Source of the DNA: Mucilaginibacter sp. Bleaf8
GTDB taxonomy: Bacteria > Bacteroidota > Bacteroidia > Sphingobacteriales > Sphingobacteriaceae
Direction: 5' to 3'
Assembly (NCBI RefSeq): GCF_018390515.1
Contig: NZ_JAHBBK010000002.1
Coordinates: forward strand, 267,743-291,742
DNA length: 24,000 bases
Shown: one piece after another, positions 9,157 through 15,591 of the stretch
Position numbering within the stretch: position 1 is the first letter of the stretch
Layout of the letters: each line of letters starts with the position of its first letter
The notes under the pieces: model-generated
The model's database searches: none
Told to the model about the DNA's origin: nothing
What the model saw: only the letters and a program-made list of their open reading frames with translations
Made by a program: the position numbers and the translations under genes

Positions 9157-10008
9157 TTACAGCAACGCAAAAGTTTTTAGCGCTGTTGAGTTCCCATTAA
9201 AAATATCCAGGTCTACTTTATTAGCAGTACCCGTAGTAATGCTTCCGCCCGAATATTGCCATATGGTAAAATTGTTCCAGCGTGCAAAAAGCCCTGGCAA
9301 AGCAGATTGGTAAGCAGATACCCATAAAGGATAGACCGAAAAATCTGTAACGCCGTTGAAATACTCGAACCAAAACTCCTTCGATGTATAAATCATTGGT
9401 GTACGTCCGGTTTGTTTAGCGAGTTGCGTAAGGCAATCCTGTATCAATTCAACACAGGCAGTTTTATTGTTTAATATATATTGATTGAGCGACTGAGATT
9501 CGGACGTGTTGCTGCCAACCTGCCACTCGATATCAAGTACCGGCGGGAGGTTACCGGCAGCTGAAAAATCTATACCACATGATTCGAAATTAGCCATCTG
9601 CGCGCTTGCCGCATCCTGAAACGTTAAAAAATGGTATGCACCAAAAATCAGTCCTTGTTGCTTTATGGCAGCCATATTGCCTTTCAGCGTCGGATCTTTG
9701 AAACCGGCACCCTGACTGGCTTTGCAATGAACAAACTGTATATGCGGCGAAAGCTTTTCCCACTCAATGTCACTGTTAAAATGACTTATATCCATGCCTT
9801 GTGGTGCAAGGTGGTCAAGTATAGCCCATGTCTTAGGTCCTGCAATACCATCAGGTGTTAAGCCCTTGTCTGACTGGAATCGTTTTACAGCGGCCTCCGT
9901 ACCTGGCCCGAAATTACCATCAATAGTAAGCGGGTAATTTAAAAATGAAAGTGCGCGCTGAAGCAGTTGTACCTCGCTGCCGGTTGAGTTAAGGTTAAGT
10001 GTTTGCAT
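9157..10008 (-). CDS. Peptidoglycan-binding domain plus GH25 muramidase (lysozyme), no signal peptide
   Basis: N-terminal PG_binding_1 repeat (LQRALSFLNYPLTIDGNFGPGTEAAVKRFQSDKGLTPDGIAGPKTWAIL). GH25 motifs follow: GMDISHFNSDIEW, FVHCKASQG, GAYHF, LDIEW. The track start at 10050 is a TTG; the first ATG is at 10008 (MQTLNLNSTG). Neither start gives a signal peptide. Confidence 0.85.
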   Translation of the reverse strand: MQTLNLNSTGSEVQLLQRALSFLNYPLTIDGNFGPGTEAAVKRFQSDKGLTPDGIAGPKTWAILDHLAPQGMDISHFNSDIEWEKLSPHIQFVHCKASQGAGFKDPTLKGNMAAIKQQGLIFGAYHFLTFQDAASAQMANFESCGIDFSAAGNLPPVLDIEWQVGSNTSESQSLNQYILNNKTACVELIQDCLTQLAKQTGRTPMIYTSKEFWFEYFNGVTDFSVYPLWVSAYQSALPGLFARWNNFTIWQYSGGSITTGTANKVDLDIFNGNSTALKTFALL

Positions 10009-10053
10009 GATACGTTGTGCATTATGTTTTTTAATGATACGATAGTTCAAGAA

Positions 10054-11001
10054 CTAGCCGTAAAAATCAGATGAACCGCCGAAGTTTGCTTTTGATGAAT
10101 AATCAGTTTGTGCTTTTAAATTATCAGGAACGGGAACGTTTGTAGACGTCTCCTGAGTTTTAGCTACAGAATTGATTTTCATTTGCTTATAATCTTTTAT
10201 CGGTGAATTACCGCCGGCTTGCAAGTCAGCACCTGTAGACGTATTATCAGTTGGTGAGGCTTTTGCATCTGGTACAGGCTTAATCGTACTGTTGACTTCC
10301 GGTATGCTATTATTACCATCTGCCGGTTGATGACTTTTATAATTTGTTACTGTGTTAACAACAGGCTGTTGGTTTTTTTCATCGTTTTCCTGAGATCGCA
10401 TGGTTACAAATGTAGCGCTACTGATACCCATTAAGGTAAGTAACGTGTCGCTTAACTCAGGTAAAATACAGCCTTTAGTAATCTGTGCTACTTTATAAAG
10501 ATAAACAGCCATGCCAACAATAGTCCAGATTACGTGCTGAAAACGATGAATACTAATGCCACTATCATCTGATAGAATATCGTAAAAAAAGCCACCAGAC
10601 GGCGAATTCTGATGCCTGGGTCTATCATCGCCTATTTCGCGTTTATCTATGATCTTTGTGATAGCAGCCGTGCCTGAGAATATCCCAAGAACAACAAGTG
10701 CCGTTTGGTTTATCTTCGCTTCGGAGCAATCCCCTTCAAACAGGGAAAGGTATAGGTACGAGCAGGAAATAACCACCGTCCACAACCCCAATTGTACTTT
10801 GGATAAACTGTAAGGAGACGTTATGTTTGTTTTAATTTTAATTAAACTAATATTGGCGGCATTGATAATTTTTGGATCGCCGCTAACATCATCGCGAAGT
10901 AAAAGCGTCCATTTGCCCAGTAGGAAAAACGACAAGAGAATGGCGACTATACCTGCCATTGCCAGTAATGATTCTGGATTGGCAAAACCTATGAACAGCA
11001 T
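10054..11001 (-). CDS. Multi-pass membrane protein with a disordered polar C-terminal tail; function unknown
   Basis: There are about 4-5 hydrophobic helices (AMAGIVAILLSFFLLG, LGLWTVVISCSYLYLSLF, ALVVLGIFSGTAAI, VIWTIVGMAVYLY, LLTLMGISSATFV). A tail of about 110 aa rich in N/S/T/P/Q follows. The track start at 11007 is a TTG; the ATG is at 11001. The stop lies 3 nt from the lysozyme ORF. Confidence 0.75.
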   Translation of the reverse strand: MLFIGFANPESLLAMAGIVAILLSFFLLGKWTLLLRDDVSGDPKIINAANISLIKIKTNITSPYSLSKVQLGLWTVVISCSYLYLSLFEGDCSEAKINQTALVVLGIFSGTAAITKIIDKREIGDDRPRHQNSPSGGFFYDILSDDSGISIHRFQHVIWTIVGMAVYLYKVAQITKGCILPELSDTLLTLMGISSATFVTMRSQENDEKNQQPVVNTVTNYKSHQPADGNNSIPEVNSTIKPVPDAKASPTDNTSTGADLQAGGNSPIKDYKQMKINSVAKTQETSTNVPVPDNLKAQTDYSSKANFGGSSDFYG

Positions 11002-11098
11002 TTTCAAGAAACATTAAATTTGCTAAACTCCTTGTTATTATTGATAATAGCAGGTTTACGTTGAAAAGATTTTCAGTTAAACTGCTGGATGAAATACG

Positions 11099-12872: not shown

Positions 12873-13286
12873 TTATGCCTGCTGCGTATTTATGCGGCTG
12901 ATGTCATTCATGGCATTATCAGTGTTTTGCACCGTTTGCTGGGCCGTTTGCATTGCGGCCTCAATGGTGGATGCCATGGTTTGCTGTACATTTGCCAACG
13001 ATGGTGTTGTTGGAAAAGTAGGCGTACCTGTAGCAGGTGCAGCAGTTGGTTGCGCAGGCTGTGTCTGTTCACTCATAATTTGTAAACTATCGGCCGTTAA
13101 TGATTTAAAGGCATTATCCACCTGCGCCTGCATGGTTTGCAGCGCCTGTTGTTGAATGGTCAGAATCTGCTGTTTCAAATCGCTTATCTGCTGCTGCATA
13201 TTTTGCCGGGCCTGCTGGGCCGGGGTTAGTTGTTGGGGCACGGAATTCCCTGCATCCATGCCGGGCGTATCTACTTGCTGTGTCAT
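12873..13286 (-). CDS. Gln/Thr/Ala-rich coiled-coil-like protein; function unknown
   Basis: 137-aa ATG ORF with Q-rich heptad-like segments (QQARQNMQQQISDLKQQILTIQQQALQTMQAQV) and a central Pro/Thr/Ala linker. It lies immediately downstream of the rebB array. Confidence 0.6.
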   Translation of the reverse strand: MTQQVDTPGMDAGNSVPQQLTPAQQARQNMQQQISDLKQQILTIQQQALQTMQAQVDNAFKSLTADSLQIMSEQTQPAQPTAAPATGTPTFPTTPSLANVQQTMASTIEAAMQTAQQTVQNTDNAMNDISRINTQQA

Positions 13287-13315: not shown

Positions 13316-13342
13316 GAGCAATACCGCTTTGCGGTATTGCTC
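13316..13342 (-). terminator. Strong intra-cluster hairpin (terminator or attenuator) after the rebB array
   Basis: Perfect 12-bp stem GAGCAATACCGC-TTT-GCGGTATTGCTC in the 95-nt gap between the last rebB-like gene (stop at 13382) and the next gene (start at 13286). An A/T-rich tract follows on the minus strand. Confidence 0.6.
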
Positions 13343-13381
13343 ATTAACGGCATTAAAGACGCATATCTGCTTGTTGAAATC

Positions 13382-13651
13382 TTATGAACCGAAGATTTGT
13401 TTAGTGCCAACCGCATCAGATGCGGTATCGATAGAATACAGCATAGTTACGCCCATAGTGGTGGCAGCCTGTGCGGTTATATTGCTTTGCTGCTGGCTGG
13501 TGGTGGCATTGTGTGCCGCATTGGCCAGCGCCTGGGCCGTGGCCTGGAATAAATTGCCCATTGCAATAGCAGGTGCATCACCCAGTACCTTGGTGTTTGC
13601 CTGGGTTACCGAATCGGTAATCTGATCGTTTACTGAAGTTGGAAAAGCCAT
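13382..13651 (-). CDS. rebB: RebB-family R-body ('killing trait') protein, copy 1
   Basis: 89 aa: MAFPTSVNDQITDSVTQANTKVLGDAPAIAMGNLFQATAQALANAAHNATTSQQQSNITAQAATTMGVTMLYSIDT. This matches the RebB family core as I recall it (VNSQITD[AS]VTQ.N.KV....PA.A...LYQ......A..NAV..QQQ.N....A.T.QGV...YS.DT). Confidence 0.8.
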   Translation of the reverse strand: MAFPTSVNDQITDSVTQANTKVLGDAPAIAMGNLFQATAQALANAAHNATTSQQQSNITAQAATTMGVTMLYSIDTASDAVGTKQIFGS

Positions 13652-13687
13652 GATAAGATTTTATTTAATGTTTAAATGATTGTATTA

Positions 13688-13975
13688 TTATTGCCCTAGT
13701 ACTTTACCCGGTGTGTAAATCTGCTTGGTGCCTACAGCATCAGAAGCTGTATCAATGGAGTACAGTGTGGTTACACCCATCGTAGTTGCTGCTTGTGCGG
13801 TTATATTGCTTTGTTGCTGGCTGGTGGTGGCATTATGTGCTGCATTGGCTAAAGCCTGGGCTGTTGCCTGAAAAAGGTTGCCCATGGCTATTGCAGGCGC
13901 ATCGCCTAGTACCTTGGTGTTTGCCTGTGTCACCGAATCGGTGATCTGGCTGTTTACTGCGGTTGGAAAAGCCAT
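13688..13975 (-). CDS. rebB: RebB-family R-body protein, copy 2
   Basis: 95 aa. It is almost identical in protein sequence to copy 1 over the first 85 or so residues and has a different C-terminal tail (YTPGKVLGQ). Confidence 0.8.
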   Translation of the reverse strand: MAFPTAVNSQITDSVTQANTKVLGDAPAIAMGNLFQATAQALANAAHNATTSQQQSNITAQAATTMGVTTLYSIDTASDAVGTKQIYTPGKVLGQ

Positions 13976-14002
13976 AAAATTTTATGTTTTACGTTAATAT
14001 TG

Positions 14003-14269
14003 TTATTGATAGATGTTCGTGGTGCCTACAGCATCAGAAGCTGTATCAATTGAGTATAAGGTGGTTACACCCGTGGTGGTGGCCGCCTGCCCGGTCATGT
14101 TAGTTTGTTGCTGCGAGGCCGTGGCATTATGGGCCGCATTGGATAACGCTTGCGAGGTAGCCATAAAAAAGTTACCCATTGCCATAGCGGGCGAGTCGCC
14201 TAATACTTTGGTGTTTACTTCTGATACCGAATCGGTGATCTGACTGTTTACTGCGGTTGGAAAAGCCAT
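14003..14269 (-). CDS. rebB: RebB-family R-body protein, copy 3 (subtype 2)
   Basis: 88 aa: MAFPTAVNSQITDSVSEVNTKVLGDSPAMAMGNFFMATSQALSNAAHNATASQQQTNMTGQAATTTGVTTLYSIDT. Confidence 0.8.
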   Translation of the reverse strand: MAFPTAVNSQITDSVSEVNTKVLGDSPAMAMGNFFMATSQALSNAAHNATASQQQTNMTGQAATTTGVTTLYSIDTASDAVGTTNIYQ

Positions 14270-14306
14270 GATTTTTACTGTTGTGGTTAATTAATCCGGT
14301 TAGTTA

Positions 14307-14573
14307 TTATGCGAAAATCTTTTTTGTACCCACCGCGTCAGACGACGTGTCTATAGAGTACAACGTGGTTATACCCGAGGTTGTAGCTGCCTGTGCAGTA
14401 ATGTTGGTTTGCTGTTGTGCAGCAGTTGCATTATGAGCGGCATTAGCCAGGGCTTGTGAGGTTGCCATGAAAAGGTTACCCATTGCCATAGCGGGCGAGT
14501 CGCCCAATACTTTGGTGTTTACTTGTGAAACTGAGTCGGTAATTTGATCATTTACTGATGTTGGAAAAGCCAT
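14307..14573 (-). CDS. rebB: RebB-family R-body protein, copy 4 (subtype 2)
   Basis: 88 aa. It shares the DSPAMAMGN.FMATSQAL signature with copy 3. Confidence 0.8.
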   Translation of the reverse strand: MAFPTSVNDQITDSVSQVNTKVLGDSPAMAMGNLFMATSQALANAAHNATAAQQQTNITAQAATTSGITTLYSIDTSSDAVGTKKIFA

Positions 14574-14611
14574 AATTGTTTTCTTTTAAGGTTATAAAAT
14601 GGTGTTAATTG

Positions 14612-14878
14612 TTAAGCGTAAATTTGTTTGGTGCCTACGGCATCAGACGATGTATCTATAGAATACAATGTAGTTACGCCCATCGTAGTGGCTGCTTGTG
14701 CCGTAATGTTGCTTTGTTGCTGACTGGTGGTAGCATTGTGGGCTGCGTTGGCTAAAGCCTGTGCCGTTGCCTGGAGCAAATTGCCCATTGCTGTTGCCGG
14801 TGCCAGGCCCAGTACCTGTGTGTTTGCTTGTGTTACCGAATCGGTGATTTGACTGTTTACTGCGGTTGGAAAAGCCAT
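14612..14878 (-). CDS. rebB: RebB-family R-body protein, copy 5 (subtype 1 variant)
   Basis: 88 aa. It is close to copies 1 and 2 but has LGLAPATAMGNLLQ. Confidence 0.8.
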   Translation of the reverse strand: MAFPTAVNSQITDSVTQANTQVLGLAPATAMGNLLQATAQALANAAHNATTSQQQSNITAQAATTMGVTTLYSIDTSSDAVGTKQIYA

Positions 14879-14904
14879 AGTTGTTTAATTTTAAGTTTAT
14901 GTAT

Positions 14905-15129
14905 TTAGATTTTTATCGAATAAATAAGTGCCACACCCTGGGCAGTTACTGCTTGCCCTAAGATATTGGCCTGCTGCTGGGCAACGGTGGCATTGTGTGC
15001 GGCGTTGGCCAGCGCCTGGGCCGTGGCCTGGTAAAAGTTGCCTATAGATATGGCAGGCGCGTTGCCAATTACCTCCAAACCTGCTTCTGTAATTGAATCG
15101 GTAATTTGGCTATTTACAGTTGATGCCAT
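14905..15129 (-). CDS. rebB: RebB-family R-body protein, copy 6 (short form, closest to the classical RebB core)
   Basis: 74 aa: MASTVNSQITDSITEAGLEVIGNAPAISIGNFYQATAQALANAAHNATVAQQQANILGQAVTAQGVALIYSIKI. It lacks the MAFPT N-terminus and the SIDTxSDAVGT C-terminus of the other five. Confidence 0.8.
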   Translation of the reverse strand: MASTVNSQITDSITEAGLEVIGNAPAISIGNFYQATAQALANAAHNATVAQQQANILGQAVTAQGVALIYSIKI

Positions 15130-15159
15130 TGTGCGTACTACTTATGTTTCCAAAATGAA

Positions 15160-15579
15160 TTAGTTGTTAGCCGGTACACCGCTGCTTGTGCTGCCTGCCT
15201 GATCAGACGTATTGCCGGGTGTTGTACTGGTAACTACGGTTGCCGTGGGCGTTGTTACTGTCTGAACAGTAGTTGAGGGAGTAGTATTACTTGTACCTGA
15301 CGTTGTTGTGCTGCCCGAAAGATCAGCAGGAGCAGGTGGCGCGGGCTTTGGTGGTGGCGACTGTATGCCCATTACCGAAAGTATGCGGGCACATGTTGAG
15401 GTGGTTGTGGCCGAGTTTAACATTTGTGCATTATGCTGTGCCGTTACTGCATTATGCATTGACATGCCTATAGTTTCGGCCATCACATTGTTCAACATGG
15501 CAACAGATTGTGAATTTGCAGTTCCGCGCAAAAGTTGCTGAACGTCGGTTATTGATGATAATATAAAATCGTTTGACAT
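15160..15579 (-). CDS. Divergent Reb-like domain fused to a Ser/Thr/Pro-rich C-terminal tail
   Basis: 139 aa. Residues ~8-70 (SSITDVQQLLRGTANSQSVAMLNNVMAETIGMSMHNAVTAQHNAQMLNSATTTSTCARILSV) align colinearly with the RebB core (ITD ... A.M.N ... HNA.T.Q....). A tail of about 70 aa follows (PPPKPAPPAPADLSGSTTTSGTSNTTPSTTVQTVTTPTATVVTSTTPGNTSDQAGSTSSG). Confidence 0.65.
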   Translation of the reverse strand: MSNDFILSSITDVQQLLRGTANSQSVAMLNNVMAETIGMSMHNAVTAQHNAQMLNSATTTSTCARILSVMGIQSPPPKPAPPAPADLSGSTTTSGTSNTTPSTTVQTVTTPTATVVTSTTPGNTSDQAGSTSSGVPANN

Positions 15580-15591
15580 ATGATTATTATG

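What the first reader, a model, noticed from the sequence alone, without database searches (positions are those of the whole stretch)
13382..15129. Six tandem rebB paralogues: proteins nearly frozen while codons have drifted, in three subtypes
Seen in sequence: copies 1 and 2 differ at only about four residues over their first 85 or so codons. Their DNA nevertheless differs at dozens of mostly third-codon positions; for example ccgcatcagatgcggtatcgatagaatac in copy 1 aligns with cagcatcagaagctgtatcaatggagtac in copy 2. The copies fall into three subtypes. Subtype 1 (copies 1, 2, 5) has GDAPAIAMGNLFQATAQ. Subtype 2 (copies 3, 4) has GDSPAMAMGN.FMATSQ. The short copy 6 lacks the MAFPT N-terminus and the SIDTxSDAVGT C-terminus. 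Inference: the duplications are old and under strong purifying selection rather than homogenised by recent gene conversion. That suggests either a defined multi-subunit stoichiometry in the polymer or selection for high dosage, with codon divergence limiting recombinational collapse of the array.
Basis: seen in the sequence. Interest (0 to 1): 0.7.

Follow-up and report, generated by a model that had tools for sequence, protein, structure and literature searches.

The report
Six-gene R-body subunit array
This is the structural-gene array of an R-body locus (R bodies are coiled protein ribbons that spring open and puncture membranes) in a Mucilaginibacter soil or leaf bacterium; its six old, tightly conserved subunit genes follow the normal pattern for this gene family and are not an oddity.

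Summary
Six intact RebB-family genes (PF11747, E 1e-25 to 1e-31) lie head to tail on the minus strand at 13382-15129. Copies 1 and 2 are 93% identical in protein but differ at 52 bases, 41 of them at third codon positions (dS about 0.8-1.6, omega 0.03-0.07).

One stated detail is wrong: copy 5 lacks the quoted subtype-1 motif. The six copies fall into five classes, not three.

The window matches Mucilaginibacter sp. Bleaf8. The locus also holds three more Reb-like ORFs, a conserved 341-aa protein, an AraC regulator and a downstream lysis-like pair.

- **Duplications are old.** Copies match their positional orthologues in Pedobacter.
- **Classes recur widely.** The same long classes (E, G, Q, B) appear in 45 of 81 arrays from several phyla.
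- **Selection is strong.** Against a closer relative, omega is 0.006.
- **The pattern is generic.** 67 other arrays show the same frozen-protein, saturated-codon picture.
- **Codon divergence looks neutral.** Codon sharing is never below random expectation.
- **Conversion is not absent.** Three short patches (27-50 nt) exist, and copy 3 is a mosaic.

Verdict: a new member of a known kind, of modest interest.

The parts
17221..17228 (-). TAAATTTG, a match to the Bacteroidota -7 promoter motif, 17 nt upstream of the first Reb-like ORF. Candidate operon promoter.
   Evidence: the only minus-strand match between the AraC gene and the array. The motif count over the whole window is not above chance, so this is only a candidate. 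Sequence context.
17267..18136 (-). AraC-family regulator (two HTH_18 stretches) directly upstream. Probable regulator of the locus.
   Evidence: Pfam HTH_18 E 1.6e-38. Found next to reb genes in 11 Bacteroidota loci.
17049..17204 (-). 51-aa Reb-family ORF with a Cys-Cys motif (secondary Reb protein).
   Evidence: PF11747 E 7.8e-8, 32.7 bits against a cut-off of 24. Conserved at the same place in Pedobacter, Chitinophagaceae and Flavipsychrobacter, with relatives in proteobacterial loci.
16648..16974 (-). c8, a 108-aa distant Reb-like protein (below the Pfam cut-off).
   Evidence: PF11747 E 2e-3, 18.6 bits. tblastn relatives in 70 of 80 reb loci, 81-85% identical in Pedobacter.
15592..16617 (-). 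341-aa protein conserved in R-body clusters, function unknown, embedded in the operon.
   Evidence: No Pfam, NCBIfam or PHROG match. Relatives in 45 of 80 reb loci including Xanthomonas, Stenotrophomonas and Desulfatibacillum. 100% identical to hypothetical protein KHS38_10160 of Mucilaginibacter sp. Bleaf8. The AF2 model (pLDDT 72) is helical with a C-terminal sheet and has no PDB fold match.
15160..15579 (-). c7, 139 aa: a RebB-like N-terminal domain followed by a Pro/Thr/Ser-rich tail (secondary Reb protein).
   Evidence: PF11747 E 1.8e-13 over residues 9-69. Relatives in 72 of 80 loci.
14905..15129 (-). c6, class S: short 74-aa RebB without the MAFPT start and the C-terminal domain. First primary copy transcribed. 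Resembles RebD.
   Evidence: PF11747 E 1.3e-25. The class is monophyletic in 60/60 bootstraps. Shares the GQAVT motif with Caedibacter RebD and is 47% identical over 59 aa.
14612..14878 (-). c5, class Q: 88 aa, with Q21 and L25 in place of the K21...D25 pair.
   Evidence: Best dN match is the same-position copy in P. psychrotolerans. The class recurs in proteobacterial arrays.
14307..14573 (-). c4, class B: 88 aa, with S16, V18, M36 and S39.
   Evidence: S16 and V18 go with the [MIV]36..S39 motif in both Bacteroidota and Proteobacteria.
14003..14269 (-). c3, class B (SEVNTK subtype): 88 aa. A mosaic with conversion patches shared with c4 (14171-14220 = 14475-14524, 49/50 identical) and with c2 (14020-14050 = 13726-13756, 31/31).
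   Evidence: Orthology is ambiguous by dN.
13688..13975 (-). c2, class E: 95 aa, with the C-terminal extension TPGKVLGQ.
   Evidence: Tail-extended copies recur in Vibrio, Pseudoalteromonas, Xanthomonas, Stenotrophomonas, Brevundimonas and a cyanobacterial MAG.
13382..13651 (-). c1, class G: 89 aa ending in FGS. Last and most conserved copy. Shares an exact 27-nt run with c6 (13521-13547 = 15005-15031).
   Evidence: 98% identical to the Pedobacter orthologue. Identical protein in L081 despite 33 nt differences.
12873..13286 (-). 137-aa Gln-rich ORF immediately downstream. Present at the same position in relatives but fast-evolving.
   Evidence: No family match. 41-44% identical in Pedobacter. 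Strongly diverged even in L081.
10054..11007 (-). 317-aa protein with hydrophobic segments consistent with a membrane protein, immediately upstream of the muramidase. Candidate holin-like partner.
   Evidence: Hydrophobic segments. Syntenic in five Pedobacter loci and L006.
9157..10050 (-). GH25 muramidase with a PG_binding_1 domain and no signal peptide (endolysin-type). Candidate lysis function for R-body release.
   Evidence: Pfam GH25 6e-36 and PG_binding_1 3e-20. PHROG endolysin 8e-36. No hydrophobic N-terminus. A GH25 gene lies near reb in 14 of 80 loci, including Gammaproteobacteria and SAR324.

Best explanation
The six ORFs are the primary structural subunit genes of an R-body (reb) locus in Mucilaginibacter sp. 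Bleaf8 or a near-identical strain (Sphingobacteriaceae). They sit in one minus-strand operon. The inferred transcription order is: 51-aa Reb-like ORF, c8, the 341-aa accessory protein, c7, then c6-c5-c4-c3-c2-c1, then a Gln-rich ORF. An AraC-type regulator lies upstream, and a membrane-protein plus GH25 muramidase pair lies downstream. The six copies represent five old classes: S (c6), Q (c5), B (c4 and c3), E (c2) and G (c1). The four long classes are the same set found once each in the common E-G-Q-B array of proteobacterial reb clusters. Here the two halves are swapped (Q-B / E-G), B is duplicated, and a short RebD-like S copy is added. Shown: each copy is kept by very strong purifying selection while synonymous sites have randomised with age, apart from a few short conversion patches and a constrained 5' end. 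Inferred: the classes co-assemble into one alpha-helical polymer ribbon with non-interchangeable roles (for example core, edge or tail-bearing subunits). Extra copies within a class add dosage. The ribbon unrolls on a trigger and ruptures membranes, as in Caedibacter and Pseudomonas.
For: - Family: PF11747 full-length matches for all six copies; 47-57% identity to Caedibacter RebA and RebB.
- Operon: 26-38 nt A-rich spacers and no minus-strand terminator-like site between 13286 and 16974.
- Source organism.
- Age: dS between copies is 0.6 to saturated. Same-codon use matches random expectation for most pairs. Positional orthology with Pedobacter holds for 5 of 6 copies and by position-wise clades with 93-100% bootstrap. 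The same layout occurs in Pedobacter, and related class sets in a Chitinophagaceae MAG and in Flavipsychrobacter.
- Constraint: omega 0.006 against L081, with 3 amino-acid changes in 330 codons and 100 of 108 nt differences at third positions. Meanwhile the neighbouring Gln-rich ORF and the 341-aa protein diverge to about 40-60% identity.
- Classes: 33 of 81 arrays read E-G-Q-B and 45 of 81 contain all four long classes. S16 and V18 travel with the B motif in both phyla.
- Precedent: two RebB-type paralogues are present at similar levels in purified P. aeruginosa R bodies, and RebD is absent (PMC8322103). A single Vibrio nigripulchritudo reb cluster is reported sufficient for R-body production (PMC13430693).
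Against: - No R body has been seen in Mucilaginibacter or Pedobacter. No paper in the library links them.
- The protein NJ tree does not recover cross-phylum monophyly of classes B, Q or E (0-2 of 60 bootstraps). The shared class signatures could therefore be convergent, or the background could have been homogenised.
- The class rules partly use the same positions that define the classes.
- The 80 comparison loci were chosen by similarity to c2, which favours arrays that contain an E copy.
- Copy number within classes varies from 6 to 9 genes in Bacteroidota, which argues against a strict gene-count stoichiometry.
- The AF2 monomer model is of low confidence (pLDDT 58), so nothing structural supports distinct roles.
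Confidence: 0.8

Rival explanations
1. Dosage only: the copies are functionally interchangeable and are kept because an R body needs very large amounts of one kind of subunit.
For: c1, c2 and c5 are 89-93% identical in protein. Copy number within a class varies between relatives: B occurs 1-3 times, there are seven G/Q-type copies in Flavipsychrobacter, and arrays hold 6 to 9 genes. One array (L062) has a recent duplicate with dS 0.08.
Against: Class-specific residues and tails are kept at the same array positions across genera and recur across phyla. 33 of 81 arrays carry exactly one each of E, G, Q and B. Each copy is constrained separately at omega about 0.006, including its class-specific residues.
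Confidence: 0.2
2. Concerted evolution: protein similarity among the copies is maintained mainly by gene conversion rather than by purifying selection on old, independent genes.
For: Three identical tracts of 27-50 nt exceed expectation. Shared synonymous states and residues in c3/c4 and c3/c2 are absent from the Pedobacter orthologues. Columns 79 and 82 carry lineage-wide residues shared by all classes. The window's t2/t5 and t3/t4 copies do not resolve with their orthologues in the nucleotide tree.
Against: Synonymous sites are at or near saturation for most pairs, and codon sharing is at the random level. Orthologues, not paralogues, are the closest relatives at nonsynonymous sites for 5 of 6 copies. 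Pedobacter copies group by position with 93-100% bootstrap. The tracts cover only about 10% of the array.
Confidence: 0.1
3. Adaptive codon divergence: synonymous differences were selected to deprive RecA of identical sequence and so stabilise the array.
For: The longest exact match between any two copies is 31 nt. This is close to the minimal length for efficient RecA-dependent recombination (established knowledge, about 23-27 bp in E. coli).
Against: The same-codon fraction is 0.33-0.61 against 0.40+-0.06 under random codon choice. No pair is significantly below expectation (minimum z -1.4), and six pairs are more than 2 SD above it. The first 12-22 codons are kept alike in all copies and genera, the opposite of what this hypothesis predicts. 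The same saturation is seen in 67 arrays of all phyla, so age alone explains it.
Confidence: 0.05
4. These RebB-family proteins do not form R bodies in this organism; they build some other assembly or have another role.
For: R bodies have not been reported in Sphingobacteriaceae. The authors of the 2026 survey stress that physical presence is unconfirmed for most taxa (PMC13430693).
Against: The copies are 74-88% identical to copies in Vibrio, Marinomonas, Xanthomonas and Stenotrophomonas arrays, and R bodies or R-body production are documented for members of these genera (PMC3583457; PMC13430693). The full accessory set is present: c7, c8, the 51-aa ORF and the 341-aa protein.
Confidence: 0.1
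5. Dual coding: the long plus-strand ORFs that overlap each copy (for example 13329-13625 and 14013-14243) are real genes and explain the constraint.
For: Plus-strand ORFs of 41-98 aa overlap every copy.
Against: Third codon positions of the minus-strand frame are nearly saturated, which an overlapping coding frame would not allow. The antisense ORFs follow from the Ala/Thr/Gln-rich codon content of the RebB genes.
Confidence: 0.01

Closest known systems
Proteobacterial reb clusters whose RebB copies are closest to these (Vibrio, Marinomonas, Pseudoalteromonas, Xanthomonas, Stenotrophomonas); probably the 'group 1' synteny type of PMC13430693, though I did not test that assignment against the paper's seed sequences
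   Same: Primary RebB copies are 74-88% identical to c2. The same four long classes occur: tail-extended E, G, K21/D25-less Q, and B with S16/V18/[MIV]36/S39. Also shared are a RebB-plus-Pro-rich-tail protein, a small Cys-containing Reb protein and the ~340-aa accessory protein. Paralogues show the same high dS and low dN.
   Different: The order here is S-Q-B-B-E-G rather than E-G-Q-B. The accessory genes lie upstream rather than downstream of the array. B is duplicated, and a short 74-aa S class is added that was found only in Bacteroidota loci. The spacers lack a Shine-Dalgarno sequence.
Pedobacter reb arrays (P. psychrotolerans, Pedobacter sp. R20-19, P. terrae, Pedobacter sp. PF22-3, P. 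alluvionis)
   Same: The locus is syntenic from the two-component genes through AraC, the 51-aa ORF, c8, the 341-aa protein, c7, the array and the Gln-rich ORF to the GH25 muramidase. RebB copies match position for position at 89-98% identity.
   Different: Three of the species carry a seventh copy, an extra B. Flanking proteins are only 41-85% identical. dS to the window is saturated. The window's c3 carries two conversion patches that the Pedobacter orthologues lack.
Caedibacter taeniospiralis pKAP298 RebA, RebB and RebD (the type R-body system)
   Same: Same Pfam family. c1-c5 are 47-57% identical to RebA and RebB over about 75-80 aa. c6 is short like RebD, shares its GQAVT motif and is 47% identical over 59 aa. 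The genes are clustered.
   Different: Caedibacter has two long copies plus RebD, on a plasmid, with longer charged C-terminal tails and a lineage-specific RebC (PMC3583457). Here there are five long copies plus one short copy on a chromosome-sized contig (989 kb), and the accessory genes are different.
Pseudomonas aeruginosa PA14 reb cluster (RebP1, RebP2, RebD, RapA)
   Same: Adjacent RebB-type paralogues that are both incorporated in the polymer at similar levels. The short RebD is not detected in R bodies. The locus is controlled by a dedicated regulator (PMC8322103).
   Different: PMC13430693 assigns it to a different Reb group (group 2 with S4/RapA). It has two primary copies rather than six. 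Regulation is by RcgA and FecI2 rather than an AraC-type protein.

Membership tests
RebB family (Pfam PF11747, 'Killing trait') | Significant full-length match to the family profile above the curated cut-off | tested here: met
   All six copies score 89.7-106.6 bits against a cut-off of 24 and cover profile positions 1-64/68. c7 (50.8 bits) and the 51-aa ORF (32.7 bits) also pass. c8 (18.6 bits) does not.
RebB family (primary Reb proteins as described in PMC13430693) | Signature motifs: QITD, the central NAxxNA...QQQ block, and the KxxxD/E pair; small size; essentially Cys-free | tested here: met
   QITD and QQQ are invariant in all six copies, and none contains Cys. K21...D25 is present in c1-c4 but replaced in c5 (Q...L) and c6 (E...N).
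reb gene cluster (R-body locus) | At least three reb homologues clustered side by side, with secondary Reb proteins | tested here: met
   Nine Reb-related ORFs lie within 13382-17204 on one strand. The same architecture occurs in 80 loci.
'Group 1' reb synteny type (PMC13430693) | Group 1 primary genes co-occurring with secondary groups S1, S2 and S3 | tested here: inconclusive
   The nearest relatives are Vibrionales, Alteromonadales and Xanthomonas-type arrays, which the paper places in group 1. c7 fits the description of S2 (Reb-like with an extended Pro-rich C-terminus). I did not have the paper's seed sequences, so I could not assign groups formally.
R body (the structure itself) | SDS-insoluble coiled ribbon that unrolls on a trigger such as low pH | not testable with these tools
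   No experimental report for Mucilaginibacter or Pedobacter was found. There is no solved structure of any RebB relative. The AF2 monomer is one long helix at pLDDT 58.
Caedibacter-type reb operon (rebA-rebB-rebC-rebD) | Presence of RebC | not tested
   RebC is reported as specific to Caedibacter (PMC3583457). It is not in the PLSDB gene table for pKAP298, and I did not search for it.
RebD-like short class | Short Reb protein lacking the C-terminal domain and not needed for or incorporated in the polymer | tested here: inconclusive
   c6 is 74 aa, lacks the tail and shares GQAVT with RebD. However, its identity to RebD (47% over 59 aa) is no higher than its identity to RebA or RebB (43-46%). 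Incorporation cannot be tested here.

The most novel reading that the evidence does not exclude
The R body of Sphingobacteriaceae, and by extension of the proteobacterial clusters with the same class set, is an obligate heteropolymer of four to five anciently distinct RebB classes (S, Q, B, E, G). Their identities predate the spread of the locus between phyla. The conserved neighbour pairs (Q-B and E-G) would reflect pairwise subunit contacts or an order of assembly. A dedicated holin-like protein plus signal-less GH25 muramidase would lyse the producer cell to release the loaded ribbon.
Probability: 0.25. Interest if true: 0.55.

Novelty: new member of a known kind. Interest (0 to 1): 0.3.

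Why it matters
R bodies are among the largest single-protein machines made by bacteria and are being developed as pH-driven pistons, yet their subunit composition and atomic structure remain unknown. This locus adds no new kind of system. The comparison does give testable pointers. The multiple RebB genes in such clusters are not mere repeats: they form a recurring set of classes, each under very strong selection (omega about 0.006). This tells experimenters which genes to delete or co-express, and it argues that structural work should expect a heteropolymer. It also flags a conserved 341-aa accessory protein of unknown fold and a possible lysis module as candidates for assembly and release functions. 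It extends likely R-body production to Mucilaginibacter and Pedobacter, which are common soil and plant-associated Bacteroidota.

Tried and rejected
- **Source and relatives of the 341-aa ORF.** The exact-sequence look-up found nothing. The pattern-based genome scan with it also found nothing, although tblastn later showed relatives in 45 loci. That negative was a sensitivity limit of the 8-mer patterns.
- **Phylogeny.** The nucleotide NJ tree could not place the window's c5/c2 and c4/c3 with their orthologues, because dS to Pedobacter is saturated; I used dN instead. The cross-phylum protein NJ tree gave no support for class monophyly, so I do not claim that the classes are proven ancient.
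- **Scripts.** Two timed out and were rewritten.
- **Families and signals.** NCBIfam gave no names. PHROGs hit only the endolysin and DUF2158, so there is no sign of a prophage. Rfam found nothing in the window. The sigma-70 promoter scan was at chance level and is not suited to Bacteroidota.
- **Accessions.** An accession recalled from memory for pKAP298 was wrong. The right record was found by tblastn.
- **Hypotheses rejected.** Dual coding by the antisense ORFs and adaptive codon divergence; see the rival explanations.
Full report
**What is there**

The region 13382-15129 holds six complete minus-strand ORFs of 74-95 aa, separated by A-rich spacers of 26-38 nt with no Shine-Dalgarno sequence. 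All six match Pfam RebB (PF11747) over the whole domain, with E 1e-25 to 7e-31. The repeat finder sees the same units at 71-82% DNA identity with a period of 294-324 nt.

One stated fact is wrong. Copy 5 does not carry GDAPAIAMGNLFQATAQ; it reads GLAPATAMGNLLQATAQ.

**The locus is larger than the finding**

Upstream in the direction of transcription lie:
- a 51-aa Reb-family ORF at 17049-17204 (PF11747 32.7 bits, above the cut-off);
- a 108-aa distant Reb-like ORF at 16648-16974;
- a 341-aa ORF with no family match at 15592-16617;
- a 139-aa ORF at 15160-15579, with a RebB-like N-terminal domain and a Pro/Thr-rich tail.

An AraC-type regulator lies before them. A Gln-rich 137-aa ORF follows the array. 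Further downstream come a DUF2158 protein, unknown ORFs, a protein with hydrophobic segments, and a signal-less GH25/PG_binding_1 muramidase of endolysin type.

No minus-strand terminator-like site lies between 13286 and 16974. The only minus-strand match to the Bacteroidota -7 motif in the upstream gap is TAAATTTG at 17221-17228. A single operon is therefore likely but is inferred.

The 341-aa protein is 100% identical to hypothetical protein KHS38_10160 of Mucilaginibacter sp. Bleaf8. This identifies the source as that strain or a near-identical one.

**Testing the central claim**

A codon-aware alignment gives the following for c1 against c2:
- 83/89 identical residues;
- 52 nucleotide differences, split 6/5/41 over codon positions 1/2/3;
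- dN 0.055;
- dS 0.8-1.6 depending on the method;
- omega 0.03-0.07.

Across all 15 pairs, dS is 0.6 to saturated. Omega is about 0.03-0.2 among the five long copies.

I also drew codons at random from the array's own usage while keeping the protein sequences fixed. The fraction of identical residues encoded by the same codon is 0.33-0.61, against an expectation of 0.40+-0.06. Most pairs are therefore fully randomised at synonymous sites.

**Age and orthology**

- The closest genomes found are five Pedobacter species with a syntenic locus.
- Two of them have the same six-copy layout, and three have a seventh copy.
- At nonsynonymous sites, five of the six window copies are closest to the copy at the same array position in P. 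psychrotolerans. c3 is ambiguous.
- Pedobacter copies cluster by position, not by genome, with 93-100% bootstrap.
- Related class sets appear in a Chitinophagaceae MAG and in Flavipsychrobacter.

The duplications therefore predate at least the divergence of these genera. dS between the window and Pedobacter orthologues is itself saturated.

**Strength of selection**

A closer relative carries c4 to c1 at 88% DNA identity (Logan contig L081, found because it encodes an identical c1 protein). Over 330 codons there are 108 nucleotide differences, 100 of them at third positions, and only 3 amino-acid changes. That gives omega 0.006.

In the same comparison the adjacent Gln-rich ORF has diverged heavily. 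The 341-aa protein has its nearest other relative at 61% identity. Each copy is thus individually under very strong constraint.

**Is this unusual?**

No. I located RebB ORFs in 80 loci from Bacteroidota, Gamma-, Alpha-, Beta- and Deltaproteobacteria, Cyanobacteria and Verrucomicrobia. I then computed paralogue statistics for the 67 arrays with three or more copies.

Mean protein identity is 0.63-0.83. Median dS is 0.5 to above 3 or saturated. Only one array holds a recent duplicate. The window (0.75, 1.55) is typical.

Clustered multi-copy reb genes have been described since 2013 (PMC3583457). A 2026 survey covers Bacteroidota and notes that multiple copies of one group are common within a cluster (PMC13430693).

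**Classes**

Rather than three subtypes I see five classes:
- **S** (c6): 74 aa, no MAFPT start and no tail.
- **Q** (c5): Q21 and L25 in place of the K21...D25 pair.
- **B** (c4, c3): S16, V18, M36 and S39.
- **E** (c2): C-terminal extension TPGKVLGQ.
- **G** (c1): ends in FGS.

The four long classes recur in proteobacterial arrays. With simple rules, 33 of 81 arrays read E-G-Q-B, 12 read E-G-B, and 45 contain all four. The Sphingobacteriaceae arrays read S-Q-B-B(-B)-E-G. S16 and V18 travel with the B motif in both phyla.

S forms a clade in 60 of 60 bootstraps. It resembles Caedibacter RebD in length and in a GQAVT motif.

There are three caveats:
- The protein NJ tree does not recover cross-phylum monophyly of B, Q or E.
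- The rules partly reuse the defining positions.
- The loci were selected by similarity to c2.

**Gene conversion and the codon-divergence idea**

Three internal exact tracts exceed the randomisation expectation at P<=0.001:
- c4/c3: 49 of 50 nt identical (14475-14524 = 14171-14220).
- c3/c2: 31 nt (14020-14050 = 13726-13756).
- c6/c1: 27 nt (15005-15031 = 13521-13547).

In the first two tracts the window copies share synonymous states and residues that the Pedobacter orthologues lack: GDSP instead of GDAP, and DTAS instead of DTSS. c3 is therefore a mosaic, which also explains its ambiguous orthology. The same residues are present in L081, so these events predate that split.

Conversion thus occurs in short patches but does not homogenise the array. 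No pair shares codons significantly less often than random (minimum z -1.4). There is therefore no sign that divergence was selected. Age is sufficient to explain it.

The longest exact match between any two copies, 31 nt, is near the minimal length for RecA-dependent recombination. The array is therefore stable as a consequence of its age.

**How it most likely works**

- *Established for the family.* RebB-type proteins polymerise in the cytoplasm into a coiled ribbon. On a trigger the ribbon unrolls into a long tube and ruptures membranes. In P. aeruginosa two paralogues are present at similar levels in purified R bodies, and the short RebD is not (PMC8322103).
- *Shown here.* The gene content, the order, the class structure and the strength of selection.
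- *Inferred.* The classes co-assemble with distinct roles. Duplicated B copies add dose. The AraC protein regulates the operon. The membrane-protein plus GH25 pair lyses the producer.

**Verdict**

This is a real feature and a correct observation with one error of detail. It is a new member of a known kind. Interest is modest.

Noticed in passing
window 17049-17204 (-): A 51-aa Reb-family ORF (PF11747 32.7 bits) with a CLSVCCK motif sits between the AraC gene and c8. It is conserved in Bacteroidota loci and has Cys-containing relatives in proteobacterial reb loci. Primary Reb proteins are described as essentially Cys-free, so a conserved Cys pair in this small partner stands out.
   Followed up: partly
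window 15592-16617 (-): A 341-aa protein embedded in the operon has relatives in 45 of 80 reb loci across phyla. It has no Pfam, NCBIfam or PHROG match and no PDB fold match (AF2 pLDDT 72: helical with a C-terminal four-stranded sheet). It is a candidate R-body assembly factor of unknown fold.
   Followed up: partly
window 9157-11007 (-): A protein with hydrophobic segments is followed directly by a signal-less GH25 plus PG_binding_1 muramidase of endolysin type, co-oriented downstream of the reb operon and syntenic in Pedobacter. A GH25 gene lies within 10 kb of reb genes in 14 of 80 loci, including Gammaproteobacteria and SAR324. No other phage genes are nearby. This is possibly a lysis module for R-body release.
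   Followed up: partly
window, first ~12-22 codons of c1-c5 (for example 13586-13651, 13910-13975): Synonymous sites are constrained at the 5' end. ATGGCTTTTCCAAC is identical in all five long copies. Excess codon homozygosity is 0.26 in codons 2-12 and falls to 0.03 downstream across 35 Bacteroidota genes. A weaker form of the same gradient appears in Proteobacteria (0.14 and 0.12). This is probably selection on translation initiation or mRNA structure.
   Followed up: partly
window 13652-15159, the five spacers between c1-c6 and the c6-c7 spacer: All intergenic spacers (26-38 nt) are A/T-rich and G-poor, with no Shine-Dalgarno-like sequence. This fits Bacteroidota-type translation initiation.
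   Followed up: no
L081 617-930 (Logan SRR27955496): In the closest relative, the orthologue of c2 has a one-base deletion near codon 16, so the called gene starts at an internal Met (65 aa). This is either a real pseudogene of the E class or an assembly error.
   Followed up: no
alignment columns 79 and 82 of RebB copies (window c1-c5: D79, G82): All long classes in Sphingobacteriia and Chitinophagia carry D79 and G82, while all classes in the proteobacterial arrays mostly carry T79 and A82. Lineage-wide residues shared by every paralogue point to slow concerted evolution or to co-evolution of contacting subunits.
   Followed up: partly
window 12873-13286 (-): A Gln-rich 137-aa ORF always follows the last RebB copy in Sphingobacteriaceae, but it evolves fast (41-44% identity to Pedobacter, and strongly diverged even in L081). 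This is in sharp contrast to the frozen RebB genes next to it.
   Followed up: no
window 14880-14904 and 17210-17234: The c6-to-c5 spacer is 80% identical over 25 nt to the leader just upstream of the 51-aa ORF, which contains the TAAATTTG promoter-like motif. This could mark an internal start of transcription before c5, or it could be chance (a two-copy short repeat).
   Followed up: no
window 13329-13625 (+), 14013-14243 (+), 14727-14852 (+): Long antisense ORFs overlap each RebB gene. They are a by-product of the Ala/Thr/Gln-rich codon content. Saturated third positions in the RebB frame rule out dual coding.
   Followed up: yes
window 13422-15066 vs Azospirillum plasmids: Parts of the array match Azospirillum RebB genes at about 80% DNA identity in a megablast search, despite the phylum-level distance. 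This shows how slowly nonsynonymous sites change in this family.
   Followed up: no
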